IMG/VR virus record: IMGVR_UViG_3300042549_003657
Span: 1 to 61,807 of that record
Length of the DNA: 61,807 bases
Reading direction: 5' to 3' (one strand)
Source of the DNA: a virus
Lineage: Duplodnaviria > Caudoviricetes
Shown here: positions 2,992-33,834 of the stretch, in pieces
Numbering within the stretch: the stretch's first letter is position 1
How the letters are laid out: every line of letters begins with the position of its first letter
Position numbers and translations under genes: made by a program
Notes under the pieces: model-generated
Told to the model about the DNA's origin: nothing
Database searches by the model: none
Seen by the model: the letters and a program-made list of their open reading frames with translations, nothing else

Positions 2992-3150
2992 ATGGCAACT
3001 ACTAAACAGCCCTCCGCAAGATCCGGCGACAAGATGGCCCCGCAAGATGGTGGCGTAAAGCGCAGCGGAAACACGGGCAAGAGCAACATGGACATGCTCA
3101 AGATGGGACGCGGTTTGGCGAAAGTCGCAGCTCAGAAACGCGGAGGCTGA
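2992..3150 (+). CDS. 52-aa basic hypothetical protein (absent from the ORF track)
   Basis: AAGGAG RBS; MATTKQPSARSGDK...MLKMGRGLAKVAAQKRGG fills the gap between neighbours. Confidence 0.7.
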   Translation: MATTKQPSARSGDKMAPQDGGVKRSGNTGKSNMDMLKMGRGLAKVAAQKRGG

Positions 3151-31160: not shown

Positions 31161-33593
31161 TCAACTATTTTTAACCTCGCTATCGAACATGTCGACGAGT
31201 AGTGCGTGGTCACTTACCTTGGACGCCATAGCCTTGAACATCTTTTGCTCGATGGGGCTACTTTGTATATGCACCACAGTCACTTTGTCGGAGTTCTGCC
31301 CCTTGCGGTCGGCTCGCGCAATACATTGCAGGTACATCTCAACGCTCATCAGCGGGCCATAAAACACTACCGTGTCGGCAGCAGTCAGCGTGATCCCGTG
31401 TGCCGTCGCCTGGGGCTGCATGACCAAGACCTGAACATTGGGCGTGTGCTGGAAGTCGTTGATGATCGCCCCTCGCTTTGTCGCGCTCACGTCGCCGTGA
31501 ATCTGCGCAGTCTTGACGTTATTCTTCTCCAGGTACGTGGTGATCGTGTCGATACTAGAGCGGAACATTGCGAAGATGATGACCTTGCGGTTGGTCTCCT
31601 CGATGACCTCCATCAAGACTTTAAGCCGTGCTGAGGCATCGAATTCCACAATCTCCTTGTCGTCTGTGATCGCCGATCCGCACGACACCTGCAAGAGCTT
31701 GCTGACCATCACGCCCGCATTCACTGCGCTGATCGTCTCGCCGGCAGCCTGCACCAGCATCTGTTCCTTGAGCAGCTTGTAGTACTTCGTCTGCTGCGGT
31801 GAGAGCGCGACTTCGCGGGTGACTGTCGTGACGGGTGGGAGATCCAGGCACTGCTCCTTGGTGAACCGGATGGCGGGCTGCAAGACCTCGTGCACCAGCT
31901 TCTTGGACTCTGGCTTGGGTGCCCACTTGAACTGCGTGATCTTGTTCATCACTTTGTCCCGCCATGCCGTGTAGAACTTCGGCACACCGTTGGGGTTCAC
32001 CAGCTTGGCCAGACCGTAAGCGTCCACAGGCGACTGCGATGCAGGTGTTCCCGTCATCATCCACAGGTAGGTGTGCGGATGAATGATCGACTGCAGGGAC
32101 TTCCAGCGCTGTGTCGTGGGGTTCTTGTATGCGTTGCAGTTGTGGACTAGCCAATGATTCCCAACAAAGTAGTTAGGTGTTCCTTCAACTTCGAGGTTGT
32201 ATACAGGCTCCCCGTTTGGGCATTCGATATACGAAACACTTTCCACCCAAGCTCCGCCAGCTTGGCTTCCTTCTTCCGATCCTGCGCTTGCCGCGCTAAC
32301 AGGGTGTGACTGCCCCCGTCCACTTCCAGCCCCACTTTGAGGTGCGGCCACGCAAAGTCGAGCTTGTAGTTCGTAGGAAAGCCTTGCTGCCTCTTGCCCA
32401 ACGCTACTGGGTAGTTCCATGCCCACCCCACAGGTAAGACCTCGGAAATCAACTGTTCCATCGGCGTCATGCCCGTACCGTTCCCCCCGCGCACAATCGG
32501 CTTGTACCCGTTGGCTTTCGCTACTGCTGACAACTTCGCCCGATGTTCTGGCGTCTTCGGCCCCGACGTTTTCCCCCGTTGATCCGGCAAAATATGGTTG
32601 AAGTAGCTGGCTCCGGGATTCATTAGATGCCACCTCTTCCGTGCGCAAGATCTGGAACAGGTAACCCCAGTCGGAATCCCCTTCGATAGAAACCAAAGCA
32701 TCTGCGCTTTTTTGCGGCGGTATTCCGTCCCGCAAACGGGACAGCTCAGCGCCAGATATAAGCCGTCTTCCCGCAAGATTTTTGGCGCATACCCAACCGA
32801 CATCAGTAAAGAAGGGATGCTCAGGGGTACACCGGACGATTTTGCCGTTTCCAAGTTTGACCTCAACCAATTGCGTAGCAGTGTTGCGTACAAGTCTTTT
32901 TATACGCATTACTCCGTCAGAAGTCAAGACCGCGTCCCCGGCTTCTAGCTGTTCAATCGGGCGTCGCCCCTGCGGGGTGGACACTAGCGTCCCTGCTACA
33001 AAGCACTCATCAACAATGATCAGATCGAACCGGCCATCGTTGAGCACCTCGCGGTTGATAAGGTTCAGCCCTTCATAGTTGGTGATGACGAACTCATAGT
33101 CCCCCTGCACCAGTTCTATTCTGCGCGAGGCTTGCGCATGGTGGGCTACGACAGCGCTGCGGTGCATCACCGAGTTCATGATGTCCCCCATCCAGGCACT
33201 GTGCATGATCGACAGCGGGCACAGTATGAGCACGCGACGCACTTCACCCCGCGTCATCAGGTAGTCAGCCGCCCACAGCGCTGAGAGGGTCTTCCCGGTC
33301 CCAGGTTCGTTGAAACAGAAGGCTCGGCGGTGCAGCGTCAGGAACGACGCGGTGTCTACTTGGTGCTCCATCGGGCGGTAGCGCCCGGGCCAGTTGTACT
33401 TGCGCGTGATCGGCGAGAGTACCTTCTTGACGCCCAGGTTCTTGAGCACCCGCATCTCGTCGAGGCCGAAGAAAACAGCGACGGTGTAGCCGCCATTGCC
33501 GTGATCCTCAACGATGCGGCTCTTGGGTATTACGGTGTACTTCGCAGGGTTGCGCGTCTTGATGAGCACAGCCTTGTTGTCCAGAATCTCCAT
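31161..33593 (-). CDS. SNF2-family helicase precursor containing an intein (521 aa after splicing)
   Basis: NEPGTGKT motif I; IIVDE|CN motif II split by the intein; MTGTP motif III; HGITLT and QCIARADRKGQ motifs V/VI. Confidence 0.93.
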   Translation of the reverse strand: MEILDNKAVLIKTRNPAKYTVIPKSRIVEDHGNGGYTVAVFFGLDEMRVLKNLGVKKVLSPITRKYNWPGRYRPMEHQVDTASFLTLHRRAFCFNEPGTGKTLSALWAADYLMTRGEVRRVLILCPLSIMHSAWMGDIMNSVMHRSAVVAHHAQASRRIELVQGDYEFVITNYEGLNLINREVLNDGRFDLIIVDECFVAGTLVSTPQGRRPIEQLEAGDAVLTSDGVMRIKRLVRNTATQLVEVKLGNGKIVRCTPEHPFFTDVGWVCAKNLAGRRLISGAELSRLRDGIPPQKSADALVSIEGDSDWGYLFQILRTEEVASNESRSQLLQPYFAGSTGENVGAEDARTSGEVVSSSESQRVQADCARGERYGHDADGTVDFRGLTCGVGMELPSSVGQEAARLSYELQARLCVAAPQSGAGSGRGQSHPVSAASAGSEEGSQAGGAWVESVSYIECPNGEPVYNLEVEGTPNYFVGNHWLVHNCNAYKNPTTQRWKSLQSIIHPHTYLWMMTGTPASQSPVDAYGLAKLVNPNGVPKFYTAWRDKVMNKITQFKWAPKPESKKLVHEVLQPAIRFTKEQCLDLPPVTTVTREVALSPQQTKYYKLLKEQMLVQAAGETISAVNAGVMVSKLLQVSCGSAITDDKEIVEFDASARLKVLMEVIEETNRKVIIFAMFRSSIDTITTYLEKNNVKTAQIHGDVSATKRGAIINDFQHTPNVQVLVMQPQATAHGITLTAADTVVFYGPLMSVEMYLQCIARADRKGQNSDKVTVVHIQSSPIEQKMFKAMASKVSDHALLVDMFDSEVKNS
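32139..33005 (-). mobile_element. Intein (289 aa) in helicase motif II
   Basis: Block A CFVAGTLVST; block B CTPEHPFFT; block F VYNLEVEGTPNYFV; block G LVHN followed by +1 Cys. Confidence 0.95.
32147..32803 (-). CDS. Vsr/DUF559-like endonuclease with Zn finger and NUMOD3-like motif, nested in the +1 frame of the intein
   Basis: CPVC..TCSRSC; KTPEHRAKLS; MTPMEQ..YKLDFAW..GLEVDGGSH..QDRKKEAKLAELGWKVFRISN; frame open from 32893, first ATG at 32803. Confidence 0.88.
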   Translation of the reverse strand: MSVGYAPKILREDGLYLALSCPVCGTEYRRKKAQMLWFLSKGIPTGVTCSRSCARKRWHLMNPGASYFNHILPDQRGKTSGPKTPEHRAKLSAVAKANGYKPIVRGGNGTGMTPMEQLISEVLPVGWAWNYPVALGKRQQGFPTNYKLDFAWPHLKVGLEVDGGSHTLLARQAQDRKKEAKLAELGWKVFRISNAQTGSLYTTSKLKEHLTTLLGIIG

Positions 33594-33594
33594 C

Positions 33595-33834
33595 TTATTT
33601 CCCGTTATCGCTCACGTTAGCTTTCGGACTGCGCAGGCGCAGGTTGCCCTTGGTTGTCTTGCCCCCAGCGCGCAGCGGCTTGATGTGGTCGATGTGCTTG
33701 CCCGTGCGGTCTATGCCGGCCTTGTCGTAAGCTTGTCGAGCCTTCTGGCGCTCAAGCTGATCCTTGGTCTCGCCACTGGCCTTCTGCAAGGCGTAGGCAT
33801 GCTTGAAGTCGCGCTTACCATTCTTCTGGGTCAT
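33595..33834 (-). CDS. Small HNH-like protein
   Basis: HIDHIKPLRAGG...NLRLRSPKAN. Confidence 0.75.
   Translation of the reverse strand: MTQKNGKRDFKHAYALQKASGETKDQLERQKARQAYDKAGIDRTGKHIDHIKPLRAGGKTTKGNLRLRSPKANVSDNGK

What the first reader, a model, noticed from the sequence alone, without database searches (positions are those of the whole stretch)
32139..33005. Intact intein whose homing endonuclease is encoded in an overlapping +1 reading frame
Seen: the SNF2 helicase is interrupted in motif II (IIVDE|C...HN|CNAYKN) by a 289-aa intein with blocks A, B, F and G. Its central ~170 aa look like a motif-free S/G/A/E-rich linker. The same DNA read in the +1 frame on the same strand (32893 or 32803 to 32147) encodes a coherent protein: CxxC/CSxxC Zn finger, NUMOD3-like KTPEHRAKLS, and a Vsr/DUF559-type nuclease (LDFAW..LEVDGGSH..QD..L...GWKVFRI). 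Both frames stay open for more than 650 nt. The nuclease ORF overlaps the end of block B and all of block F, and stops 8 nt before the intein end. Established: intein endonucleases are normally in-frame LAGLIDADG or HNH domains, and Vsr-like homing endonucleases are known as free-standing genes between split-intein halves. I recall separate-frame endonucleases in intact inteins only from a recent actinobacteriophage survey, so novelty needs a literature check. Inference: this is a dual-coding selfish element and a plausible intermediate towards split inteins, since one stop in the linker plus a restart would fracture it. The nuclease could be expressed from the ATG at 32803 (no clear SD) or by a +1 slip, for example at GCC-AAA-AAT near 32780.
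Basis: partly seen in the sequence, partly recalled or inferred. Interest (0 to 1): 0.9.

Follow-up and report, generated by a model that had tools for sequence, protein, structure and literature searches.

The report
Helicase intein with overlapping-frame homing nuclease
A phage helicase gene carries a self-splicing intein whose middle encodes, in a shifted reading frame, a separate well-conserved DNA-cutting enzyme, and the same two-in-one arrangement turns up in every related phage locus examined.

Summary
The window is a 97%-complete phage genome. Its 810-aa SNF2 helicase (31161-33593, minus strand) holds a 289-aa class-1 intein (32139-33005) in motif II. The same DNA read in frame +1 encodes a Cys4 zinc-finger plus Vsr/DUF559 (EDxHD-type) nuclease.

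Selection switches frame. dN/dS is 0.16-0.39 in frame 0 over the exteins and splicing blocks. It is 0.16-0.30 in frame +1 over the nuclease core, where frame 0 looks neutral (1.08-1.47) yet carries no stops. Frame 0 folds as a mini-intein with a disordered loop of about 158 aa.

The +1 arrangement recurs in 28 of 28 close loci, 80 of 80 distant viral loci, 19 of 19 cellular-assembly loci and 7 of 7 named phages. Intein-free alleles are common and occur in the same sample. No indels appear in independent runs.

The ATG at 32803 is not conserved. Independent initiation is favoured over a +1 slip. The element looks ancient and stable, not a passing step towards split inteins. Out-of-frame intein nucleases are already in print, so this is a new variant of a known kind.

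The parts
31161..33593 (-). SNF2-family helicase gene, one uninterrupted 810-aa ORF (frame 0)
   Evidence: ORF list. Pfam SNF2-rel_dom 1.3e-20 and Helicase_C 4.4e-17. PHROG 62 DNA helicase 1.7e-101.
33006..33593 (-). N-extein (196 aa), ending in motif II ...IIVDE
   Evidence: Alignment with 28 relatives and with intein-free alleles. dN/dS in frame 0 is 0.20.
32139..33005 (-). Intein, 289 aa in frame 0 (Cys1 ... His-Asn)
   Evidence: Invariant C1, T60, H63, H288 and N289 in 23 sequences. Pfam Intein_splicing and Hint_2. Hint fold: Z 16.3 to 2lwy and Z 15.2 to the gp41-1 intein.
32742..33005 (-). N-terminal splicing subdomain (intein residues 1-88, blocks A and B)
   Evidence: Block means of pLDDT 81-94. 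Frame-0 dN/dS 0.16 over helicase residues 197-263.
32259..32732 (-). Frame-0 'linker' (intein residues 92-249): kept stop-free but otherwise unconstrained, predicted disordered
   Evidence: Low-confidence (pLDDT below 50) segments 92-118, 121-196, 203-205 and 212-249. Frame-0 dN/dS 1.08-1.47. No stops where 2.3-8.6 are expected. 47% S+G+A+E.
32139..32258 (-). C-terminal splicing subdomain (intein residues 250-289, blocks F and G)
   Evidence: Block means of pLDDT 79-93. Frame-0 dN/dS 0.39 against 1.30 in +1.
32136..32138 (-). Cys+1 codon (TGC), first residue of the C-extein; Ala (GCN) in intein-free alleles
   Evidence: An X4 contig replaces 32136-33005 with 3 letters that read GCG on the coding strand.
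31161..32138 (-). C-extein (325 aa plus stop)
   Evidence: Frame-0 dN/dS 0.20.
32147..32803 (-). Homing-endonuclease gene in frame +1. It codes 218 aa if started at ATG 32803, or 209 aa from TTG 32776; stop TAG at 32147-32149. The start is not settled.
   Evidence: +1 dN/dS 0.30 and 0.16 over the core. AF2 mean pLDDT 88.5. DUF559 hit in 44 of 44 family members. Start candidates scored.
32645..32743 (-). Cys4 zinc finger of the nuclease (C21, C24, C49, C53 in the 218-aa numbering)
   Evidence: All four Cys are invariant in 44 sequences. Profile similarity to eL24-type zinc ribbons, E 1.4e-3.
32150..32482 (-). Vsr-like / EDxHD / DUF559 catalytic domain (nuclease residues 108-218). Its last ~25 residues overlap intein block F/G and are a passenger tail.
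   Evidence: VIA-align: 3r3p_B Z 10.9 (rmsd 2.9, 91 aligned), 3hrl_A Z 10.8, 1cw0_A Z 10.4. Invariant D149, E160, D162, H166, D175. Pfam DUF559 at 32216-32389.
32743..32893 (-). Upstream part of the open +1 frame that is probably not nuclease coding (it overlaps block B and the end of the N-terminal Hint subdomain)
   Evidence: +1 dN/dS 1.77 (helicase residues 197-263) and 0.76 (264-287).

Best explanation
This is a mobile intein built as two overlapping genes. Read in the helicase frame, the 867-nt insert gives a mini-intein. Its two Hint half-domains (about 88 and 40 residues) are joined by a disordered loop of about 158 residues, whose only requirement is to contain no stop codon. The precursor helicase is made as one chain, and the intein splices itself out. 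That restores motif II as ...VDE-C-NAYKN..., with Cys in place of the Ala of empty alleles.

Read one base further on, the loop DNA is a separate gene for a protein of about 210 residues. It has an N-terminal Cys4 zinc finger, a short helical and GNG segment, and a Vsr-like (EDxHD/DUF559) nuclease domain. Ribosomes most likely start this protein internally on the helicase mRNA, just after the N-terminal Hint half-domain. In the window the candidates are TTG 32776, ATG 32803 or a CTG next to the first Cys.

The nuclease would cut intein-free helicase alleles of co-infecting phages at or near the ...GAC GAG|GCN AAC... site. Recombinational repair from the occupied allele would then copy in the whole intein-plus-nuclease unit (homing).

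Shown here: the overlap, frame-specific purifying selection, stop avoidance in frame 0, both folds, the invariant splicing and catalytic residues, scattered presence among near-identical helicase alleles, and both alleles in one sample.

Inferred, not shown: splicing activity, nuclease activity and target, the start codon, and that homing rather than loss explains the scatter.
For: Overlap and domains:
- Two same-strand ORFs at +1 offset.
- Pfam intein and DUF559 hits above cut-off.

Selection by frame, from 23 non-redundant sequences and all pairs:
- dN/dS for frames 0 / +1 / +2 is 0.20 / 1.16 / 1.93 in the N-extein.
- It is 0.16 / 1.77 / 1.80 over blocks A-B.
- It is 1.08 / 0.30 / 1.25 over nuclease residues 288-400.
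- It is 1.47 / 0.16 / 1.36 over the Vsr core.
- It is 0.39 / 1.30 / 0.77 over blocks F-G.
- It is 0.20 / 1.20 / 1.95 in the C-extein.
- The most variable codon position moves from frame-0 position 3 to frame-0 position 1, which is the +1 wobble position.
- Frame 0 has no stops in 23 of 23 sequences, where 2.3-8.6 are expected.

Folds and residues:
- The nuclease model has pLDDT 88.5. It matches I-Bth0305I, DUF559 3hrl and Vsr at Z 10.4-10.9.
- C21, C24, C49, C53, D149, E160, D162, H166 and D175 are invariant. The H166-D175 spacing of 9 equals H213-D222 of I-Bth0305I.
- The frame-0 model has an ordered Hint core and a low-confidence loop. Its Z is 16.3 to a BIL domain, with about 30 intein or Hint entries at Z above 8.
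- C1, T60, H63, H288 and N289 are invariant.

Conservation of the arrangement:
- 28 of 28 close IMG/VR loci.
- 80 of 80 distant IMG/VR loci, the best 80 of 249.
- 19 of 19 cellular-assembly loci.
- 7 of 7 fetched named phages, out of 41 hit records.
- In the distant set the +1 frame keeps 43.4% mean identity and 14 invariant columns. Frame 0 of the same nucleotides keeps 21.6% and 1.

Mobility:
- Of the 80 closest C-extein relatives (kept from at least 592), 4 are occupied and 76 are empty.
- The extein tree (27 occupied, 76 empty) needs at least 5 state changes, all 5 forced by well-supported branches. For example L008 (occupied) is sister to L043 (empty) at 100% support.
- An empty-allele contig and the occupied allele occur in the same run, X4. 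Loose ends in X4 and X6 read the empty junction.

Initiation:
- Of 87 distinct distant nuclease ORFs, 73 have an ATG within 15 codons of the first CxxC.
- The median anti-SD duplex at the chosen start is -6.9 kcal/mol, against -3.0 at random positions.
- The +1 frame opens no more than 15 codons upstream in 48 of 87.
Against: - No experiment shows splicing, cleavage or translation of the +1 frame.
- The window's own copy lacks the ATG/GTG/TTG found 2-3 codons before the first Cys in 19 of 23 relatives; it has CTG there. Its remaining candidates have weak SD matches: TTG 32776 at -3.8 kcal/mol and ATG 32803 at -1.9. This particular copy may therefore be poorly expressed.
- dN/dS in overlapping frames is biased, because a synonymous change in one frame is usually non-synonymous in the other. 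Only the contrast between frames is meaningful.
- Synonymous sites are near saturation for many pairs (pS 0.58-0.68).
- The occupied and empty sets were collected by different searches, so 4 of 80 is not a prevalence.
- A rootless tree cannot tell gain from loss.
- The sequence match to I-Bth0305I itself is weak (E 0.11).
- The empty-allele joint rests on one contig with 30 letters on its shorter side.
- The RNA-library contigs (X15) are 90-95% alike and do not prove transcription.
Confidence: 0.85

Rival explanations
1. The nuclease is made by a programmed +1 ribosomal frameshift from the helicase frame, for example at GCC-AAA-AAT near 32780. That would give a fusion of N-extein, N-terminal Hint half and nuclease, rather than a product of internal initiation.
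For: - The window lacks a strong canonical start next to the first Cys.
- The A-rich stretch and the AGA/CGG Arg codons sit just upstream.
- One database protein, P0170, is exactly such a fusion in a single frame.
Against: - Of 87 distinct distant relatives, 73 have their own ATG, with SD-like sequences (median -6.9 kcal/mol against -3.0 for controls).
- In 48 of 87 the +1 frame is closed until 15 or fewer codons before the first CxxC. In CP-T1 it is closed until 3 codons before.
- The A-run lies in a stretch where frame 0 is itself constrained as the end of the Hint half-domain (frame-0 dN/dS 0.29), so its conservation needs no slip.
- P0170 is 1 of the 150 best representatives and may be an indel.
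Confidence: 0.06
2. The +1 protein is a working nuclease kept for another purpose than homing. It could be a weapon against competing phages or host DNA, or a repair or recombination helper, with the intein merely providing a safe place to encode it.
For: - Strong purifying selection shows function but not which function.
- DUF559/Vsr-like domains occur in many non-homing contexts: 19611 representatives at E up to 0.001.
- The element is always linked to SF2 helicases in the sample examined (8 of 9 hosts).
Against: - The nuclease was never found outside an intein in 134 fetched loci.
- Occupied and empty alleles are interleaved among near-identical helicases and occur in the same sample.
- The nearest solved fold relative is a demonstrated homing endonuclease that cuts the element-free allele.
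Confidence: 0.07
3. Artefact: two compensating assembly indels hide an ordinary in-frame nuclease domain.
For: None found.
Against: - The same +1 offset is present in 28 of 28 independent metagenome assemblies and in 7 of 7 isolate phage genomes.
- No insertions or deletions appear in contigs of three other DNA runs, covering 27-30 of 30 bins.
- The nuclease frame overlaps block F/G and ends in its own stop 8 nt before the intein end.
Confidence: 0.01
4. The family is as described, but the window's own copy is a recently silenced nuclease on the way to becoming a mini-intein, which is the post-fixation stage of the homing cycle.
For: - The window has CTG where 19 of 23 relatives have ATG, GTG or TTG 2-3 codons before the first Cys.
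- Its remaining start candidates have weak SD matches.
Against: - The window keeps every residue that is invariant in the 44-sequence alignment. Those invariants are numbered on the window's own sequence, which is the alignment's first row.
- Its ORF is intact.
- Its closest relative, L008, is 94% identical in the nuclease.
- TTG at -11 is shared with 18 of 23 sequences.
Confidence: 0.12

Closest known systems
Actinobacteriophage inteins with an endonuclease VII-like nuclease in 'frame 3' on the same strand (Gosselin, Arsenault and Gogarten, bioRxiv 10.1101/2025.01.02.630785; abstract, sections 8 and 15 and searched passages read)
   Same: An intact intein with a homing nuclease in a second frame of the same strand, placed between the splicing blocks. 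The proposed origin is invasion of an intein by a free-standing nuclease gene.
   Different: - The nuclease fold differs: Vsr-like/EDxHD with a Cys4 finger here, endonuclease VII-like there.
- The frame differs: +1 here.
- The host protein differs: SF2 helicase motif II here. The preprint lists DNA polymerase, minor capsid, terminase and thymidylate synthase for its non-canonical cases.
- The hosts here reach far beyond actinophages.
Actinobacteriophage inteins with an ANTISENSE Vsr-like nuclease (same preprint)
   Same: A Vsr-like/EDxHD-type nuclease inside an intact intein, with an extra helical N-terminal region. The preprint also reports an HHpred link to 3R3P.
   Different: It is encoded on the opposite strand there and on the same strand at +1 here. 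My tblastn of the phage collection found only Corynebacterium phage phi673 among actinophages.
Cyanobacterial dnaX intein with an out-of-frame LAGLIDADG nuclease (Phillips, DeSimone and Gogarten, bioRxiv 10.64898/2026.09.14.751524; abstract, section 17 and passages read). Gorbalenya 1998 is known to me only as cited there.
   Same: - The frame-dependent selection pattern is the same: low dN/dS in the nuclease frame and raised dN/dS in the host frame.
- Distribution is sporadic.
- Empty and occupied alleles occur in the same populations.
   Different: The nuclease there is LAGLIDADG, in dnaX of cellular cyanobacteria, at +2. Here it is Vsr-like, in phage helicases, at +1.
Fractured genes: split inteins with a free-standing Vsr-like or GIY-YIG nuclease gene between the halves (Dassa et al. 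2009, PMC2677866; sections 13 and 16 and passages read)
   Same: - The nuclease superfamily is the same, including an invariant Glu before the catalytic Asp, and both are phage replication genes.
- In those loci the nuclease 3' end overlaps the downstream gene by 6-69 bp.
- The window's Hint domain is closest in sequence to a BIL domain and to their gp41-1 and NrdJ-1 inteins (E 1.9e-12, 2.1e-9 and 6.3e-4).
   Different: - The host gene is in two ORFs there and in one uninterrupted ORF here.
- Their model offers fracture or in-frame insertion; a stable out-of-frame overlap is not among its outcomes.
- Their nucleases were judged unlikely to bind structural zinc. This family has an invariant Cys4 finger.
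I-Bth0305I, prototype EDxHD homing endonuclease in a recA group I intron of a Bacillus phage (Taylor et al. 2011, PMC3239194; searched passages read)
   Same: The catalytic-domain fold matches (Z 10.9, rmsd 2.9, 91 residues). The His-to-Asp spacing of 9 matches. Both have a two-part design with an N-terminal DNA-binding region.
   Different: It is intron-encoded with NUMOD-type motifs there. Here it is intein-embedded, in an overlapping frame, with a zinc finger. Sequence similarity is marginal (E 0.11).
ShiLan insertion: an out-of-frame HNH nuclease hidden in a phage methylase gene (Arsenault et al. 2025, PMC11855218; abstract and outline read)
   Same: A nuclease gene in an alternative frame of an insert that stays open in the host frame.
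   Different: That insert has no detectable splicing domain and carries an HNH nuclease. This one is a complete intein.

Membership tests
Intein (class 1, Hint-fold protein-splicing element) | Nucleophile (Cys/Ser) at position 1 | tested here: met
   C1 is invariant in 23 of 23 sequences.
Intein (class 1, Hint-fold protein-splicing element) | Block B Thr-x-x-His | tested here: met
   T60 and H63 are invariant. The motif names are from general knowledge.
Intein (class 1, Hint-fold protein-splicing element) | C-terminal His-Asn followed by Cys/Ser/Thr at +1 | tested here: met
   H288 and N289 are invariant. Cys+1 is present in all 29 aligned helicases.
Intein (class 1, Hint-fold protein-splicing element) | Hint fold | tested here: met
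   Z 16.3 (rmsd 1.4, 126 aligned) to 2lwy and Z 15.2 to the gp41-1 intein. Pfam Intein_splicing scores 41.4 bits against a cut-off of 35.8.
Intein (class 1, Hint-fold protein-splicing element) | Homologous host genes exist without the insert, collinear across the site | tested here: met
   76 of the 80 closest alleles are empty. Cultured-phage homologues are 462-527 aa, against 521 aa here after splicing. An empty-allele contig is seen in run X4.
Intein (class 1, Hint-fold protein-splicing element) | Protein splicing occurs | not testable with these tools
   Inferred from conserved residues and from selection that keeps frame 0 open.
EDxHD / Vsr-like homing endonucleases | Vsr-like nuclease fold | tested here: met
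   3r3p_B Z 10.9, 3hrl_A Z 10.8, 1cw0_A Z 10.4 over model residues 105-218.
EDxHD / Vsr-like homing endonucleases | Conserved Glu, Asp, His, Asp catalytic set | tested here: met
   E160, D162, H166 and D175 (and D149) are invariant in 44 sequences. The H-to-D spacing of 9 is as in I-Bth0305I H213/D222. The residue-to-residue mapping is by spacing and fold, not by a printed structural alignment.
EDxHD / Vsr-like homing endonucleases | N-terminal modular DNA-binding region (NUMOD motifs) | tested here: inconclusive
   Pfam NUMOD3 hits 1 of 44 members, and not the window's copy. An invariant Cys4 finger is present instead.
EDxHD / Vsr-like homing endonucleases | Cleaves the element-free allele near the insertion point | not testable with these tools
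   Only distribution evidence is available.
Pfam DUF559 (PF04480) | Score above the curated cut-off | tested here: met
   29.7-30.9 bits against a cut-off of 20.6. 44 of 44 family members match.
Non-canonical inteins with the nuclease in another reading frame | Nuclease ORF lies inside the intein, in a frame other than the intein's, and both frames are open | tested here: met
Non-canonical inteins with the nuclease in another reading frame | Purifying selection on the nuclease frame | tested here: met
   +1 dN/dS is 0.16-0.30, against 1.08-1.47 in frame 0. Identity is 43.4% against 21.6% in the distant set.
Split intein / fractured gene (Dassa type) | Host gene divided into two ORFs with the nuclease gene between them | tested here: not met
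   A single ORF is present in the window and in all 134 fetched loci.
Programmed +1 ribosomal frameshift gene | Conserved slip site, with the downstream frame closed to independent initiation | tested here: not met
   No shared slip site across the family. 73 of 87 distant ORFs have their own ATG with an SD-like sequence.

The most novel reading that the evidence does not exclude
This is not a one-off. It is one member of a large, old and so far unannotated clade of 'two-frame' inteins at motif II of SF2 helicases, found in phages of Proteobacteria, Actinobacteria and cyanobacteria and in assemblies from many other phyla. In this clade a zinc-finger/Vsr-like homing nuclease is always read at +1 of the splicing domain.

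The overlap would be a third, evolutionarily stable outcome of a nuclease gene invading an intein, beside fracture and in-frame fusion. The host frame is held only to 'no stops', and the nuclease module can be swapped between inteins. The window and L010 illustrate the swap: 96-100% identity in the flanks and intein ends, 59-77% in the nuclease core.

If so, many phage 'helicase' annotations hide a second gene. The family would also be a natural model for how two proteins share one DNA stretch over long times.
Probability: 0.6. Interest if true: 0.75.

Novelty: new variant of a known kind. Interest (0 to 1): 0.66.

Why it matters
- It extends the recently recognised class of inteins with out-of-frame nucleases to a new nuclease family, a new host protein and a much wider range of phages.
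- The comparative evidence is unusually clean: a phase switch of selection at both borders of the overlap, and active stop avoidance in the unconstrained frame.
- It shows that an out-of-frame nuclease inside an intact intein can persist over deep divergence. That bears on models of how inteins acquire nucleases and how split inteins arise.
- Practically, the nuclease gene is missed by annotation in the named phage records I fetched. The gene tables of L001-L007 list no CDS over it other than the helicase.
- The family offers candidate site-specific nucleases aimed at a conserved helicase motif, and mini-inteins that tolerate a loop of about 160 residues.

Tried and rejected
- Nucleotide search of the phage collection with the intein region found nothing. 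Protein-level searches were needed.
- Foldseek on the whole two-domain nuclease model gave no match at E up to 0.001. Only domain-level rows pointed to 3r3p, 3hrl and 1cw0. The second aligner settled it.
- The TTG at 32893, which begins the listed 248-aa ORF, was rejected as the start, because the +1 frame is unconstrained there. ATG 32803 was rejected as a conserved start (8 of 23).
- I looked for in-frame or free-standing forms of this nuclease. There were none among 127 loci from the collection scans. The 150 best of 19611 representatives are 117-310 aa except P0170. That library has no genomic context, so I cannot say how many of those proteins are embedded.
- The N-terminal zinc-finger domain was not searched as a separate fold.
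- The NUMOD3 reading was largely rejected (1 of 44).
- RNA-library contigs (X15) are reported only as presence, not as expression. The joint 32069-33063 in X3 has 20 letters on its shorter side, and I draw nothing from it.
- I did not run complex prediction, because no binding claim is made.
Supplemental Table 1 of Gosselin et al. may list Vsr-like intein sequences that bear on novelty.
- The statement that this specific arrangement is not in print rests on the searches, within the held library only.

Full report
**What is there.** The window is a whole IMG/VR virus record of 61,807 bp, estimated 97% complete, with 56.3% G+C. Near-identical sequence occurs in lake and freshwater metagenome runs from several studies. 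On the minus strand, ORF 31161-33593 encodes an 810-aa SNF2-type helicase. It sits in a replication module with a PD-(D/E)XK nuclease and a family-A DNA polymerase. Motif II is interrupted after ...IIVDE by a 289-aa insert (32139-33005). The insert begins with Cys and ends with His-Asn, and it is followed by Cys. A second ORF on the same strand, 32147-32893, lies at +1 relative to the helicase. It matches Pfam DUF559 above the curated cut-off (29.7 bits against 20.6).

**Both frames are real genes, in different places.** I collected 28 related loci from IMG/VR using the +1 protein (51-94% identity).

- In 28 of 28, the nuclease frame (236-254 aa) and the helicase frame are both open across the overlap, while the third frame is closed (13-51 aa).
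- On 23 non-redundant sequences I computed Nei-Gojobori dN/dS in each frame. Frame 0 is constrained in the exteins (0.20) and in the splicing blocks (0.16 for A-B, 0.39 for F-G).
- The +1 frame is constrained only between helicase residues 288 and 449 (0.30 and 0.16). There frame 0 looks neutral (1.08 and 1.47).
- The most variable codon position moves from frame-0 position 3 to frame-0 position 1, which is the wobble position of the +1 frame.
- Frame 0 nevertheless has no stop in 23 of 23 sequences. Synonymous resampling of the nuclease predicts 2.3-8.6 stops, and the third frame carries 5-11 as predicted.

So frame 0 is selected in the middle only to stay open. These dN/dS values are biased by the overlap and by saturation, so only the contrast between frames is informative.

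**Folds.**

- The +1 protein, folded with a 44-sequence alignment, gives mean pLDDT 88.5. Residues about 108-218 match the catalytic domain of the homing endonuclease I-Bth0305I (Z 10.9), the DUF559 structure 3hrl (Z 10.8) and Vsr (Z 10.4).
- Four Cys (CxxC...CxxxC), a GNG motif, and D149, E160, D162, H166 and D175 are invariant. The His-to-Asp spacing of 9 is that of the I-Bth0305I residues mutated by Taylor et al. 2011 (passages read).
- The frame-0 intein gives mean pLDDT 56.5. Residues 1-88 and 250-289 have block means of 79-94, and almost all of 92-249 is below 50. The ordered part is a Hint fold (Z 16.3 to a bacterial intein-like domain, Z 15.2 to the gp41-1 intein).
- C1, T60, H63, H288 and N289 are invariant.

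In frame 0 the element is therefore a mini-intein with a loop of about 158 residues that is rich in Ser, Gly, Ala and Glu (47%).

**The arrangement is general and old.**

- tblastn of the +1 protein against 50,697 phage records hit 41 records (31-35% identity). All 40 listed rows lie under features annotated as helicase, 'P-loop', 'coil containing' or hypothetical protein.
- In the 7 records I fetched, the nuclease is again at +1 of an uninterrupted helicase, with a ...DE|C ... HN|C intein. They are Pseudomonas phage MR14; Vibrio phages 104E43.1, 159E43-1b, CP-T1, K391 and 1.194.O; and Corynebacterium phage phi673.
- A profile search of IMG/VR found 249 relatives. The best 80 (34-55% identical to the MR14 nuclease) are all +1 inside a long ORF. 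None is free-standing or in frame, and 78 of the 80 show an ...HN|C/S junction by a simple pattern.
- Nineteen of 19 loci from bacterial and archaeal assemblies are built the same way.
- In the distant set the +1 frame keeps 43.4% mean identity and 14 invariant columns. The same nucleotides in frame 0 give 21.6% and 1, with no stops.
- Eight of nine sampled hosts are SF2 helicases of the ResIII/DEAD or SNF2 type.

Two of the seven named records are also among the 80 (CP-T1 and phi673).

**Mobility.**

- Among the 80 closest C-extein relatives (79-97% identity, kept from at least 592), 4 carry the intein and 76 are empty. The empty alleles read ...VDE|A-N-x-Y-K-N..., and one has Cys at +1.
- An extein DNA tree of 27 occupied and 76 empty alleles needs at least 5 changes of state, all 5 forced by well-supported branches. 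None of 500 label shuffles is as low. Occupied alleles sit next to near-identical empty ones.
- In contigs of an independent run (X4), one contig replaces 32136-33005 with three letters that read GCG (Ala) on the coding strand. Loose ends in X4 and X6 read the empty junction, so both alleles occur in the same samples. The same call shows no insertions or deletions in three DNA runs.
- The window and L010 are 96-100% identical in the flanking exteins and the intein ends, but only 59-77% identical in the nuclease core. This points to exchange of the nuclease module.
- The tree is unrooted and the two sets were sampled differently, so gain and loss cannot be separated.

**How the nuclease is made.**

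- The stretch 32803-32893 is not nuclease coding (+1 dN/dS 1.77).
- In the window's subgroup, 19 of 23 sequences have ATG, GTG or TTG 2-3 codons before the first Cys. A TTG at -11 is present in 18 of 23, and the ATG at -20 (32803) in 8 of 23. The window has CTG at -2 and -4, the TTG at 32776 and the ATG at 32803, all with weak SD matches.
- In the distant set, 73 of 87 distinct ORFs have an ATG within 15 codons of the first CxxC. The median anti-SD duplex is -6.9 kcal/mol, against -3.0 at random positions. The +1 frame opens no more than 15 codons upstream in 48 of 87. I picked the best candidate per sequence, which favours low energies somewhat.
- Independent internal initiation is therefore the family's likely mechanism, and a +1 slip is unlikely. 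The window's own start remains open.

**Comparison with what is known.**

- Out-of-frame and antisense nucleases in intact inteins are described for actinobacteriophages: antisense LAGLIDADG, antisense Vsr-like and same-strand endonuclease VII-like (Gosselin et al. 2025).
- They are also described for the cyanobacterial dnaX intein (Phillips et al. 2026). Both preprints cite Gorbalenya 1998.
- Vsr-like nucleases are known as free-standing genes between split-intein halves (Dassa et al. 2009) and in a group I intron (Taylor et al. 2011).
- A hidden out-of-frame HNH in a non-intein insert is also known (Arsenault et al. 2025).
- I found no report of a same-strand +1 Vsr-like nuclease in helicase inteins. 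The supplements were not seen.
- The window's Hint domain is closest in sequence to a BIL domain and to the gp41-1 and NrdJ-1 inteins of the fractured genes, which suggests kinship with those systems.
The single fused form, P0170, could not be examined at the DNA level.

**Verdict.** This is a real, functional-looking dual-coding mobile intein.

Noticed in passing
window 33595-33834 (-): A 79-aa ORF with an HNH endonuclease motif (Pfam HNH 22.2 bits, cut-off 21.4) ends one base before the helicase start codon. This may be a second, free-standing nuclease gene beside the invaded helicase.
   Followed up: partly
L127:745-4380 and L166:766-4161: These helicases carry two inteins. One is an ordinary in-frame LAGLIDADG intein near the N-terminus (Hom_end_hint, Hom_end). 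The other is the two-frame Vsr-type intein further on.
   Followed up: partly
L045 (match starts at 3001): An intein-free helicase allele has Cys (TGT) instead of Ala at the +1 position (...VDE|CSAYAN). Its sister L046 has Ala. This may be a footprint of precise intein loss.
   Followed up: no
P0170 (496 aa): A database protein reads from a ResIII helicase N-extein and the N-terminal Hint half straight into the nuclease in one frame. It is the only such form among the 150 best representatives. It could be a natural fusion or fracture, or an indel. Its DNA could not be fetched.
   Followed up: partly
window 32139-33005 versus L010:2790-3656: The pair is a mosaic: 96-100% nucleotide identity in the exteins and both intein ends, but 59-77% in the nuclease core. 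This suggests the nuclease module recombines between inteins.
   Followed up: partly
L005:2357-3103 and L006:2255-3022: The nucleases of Vibrio phages CP-T1 and K391 have an extra N-terminal copy of the CxxC...CSxxC zinc-finger module.
   Followed up: no
L201:1564-4755: A host ORF combines the intein-bearing helicase with a C-terminal N6/N4 DNA methylase domain.
   Followed up: no
L185:1549-4245; also L210, L212, L213, L214: Some hosts or junctions differ from the DE|C motif-II site. Examples are ...TG|C......DEGH|C..., and one extein with no Pfam hit. My pattern took the first block-A-like match in each ORF, so the exact flanks of these inteins were not verified.
   Followed up: no
window 32050-33100, run X15: Contigs from an estuary metatranscriptome library, 90-95% alike, cover parts of the intein region of a relative. 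This shows presence in an RNA library only; transcription is not shown.
   Followed up: no
L001-L007 (named phage records): In none of the 7 fetched gene tables is the +1 nuclease ORF annotated. Only the helicase (or a 'hypothetical' or 'coil containing' protein) is listed over it.
   Followed up: yes
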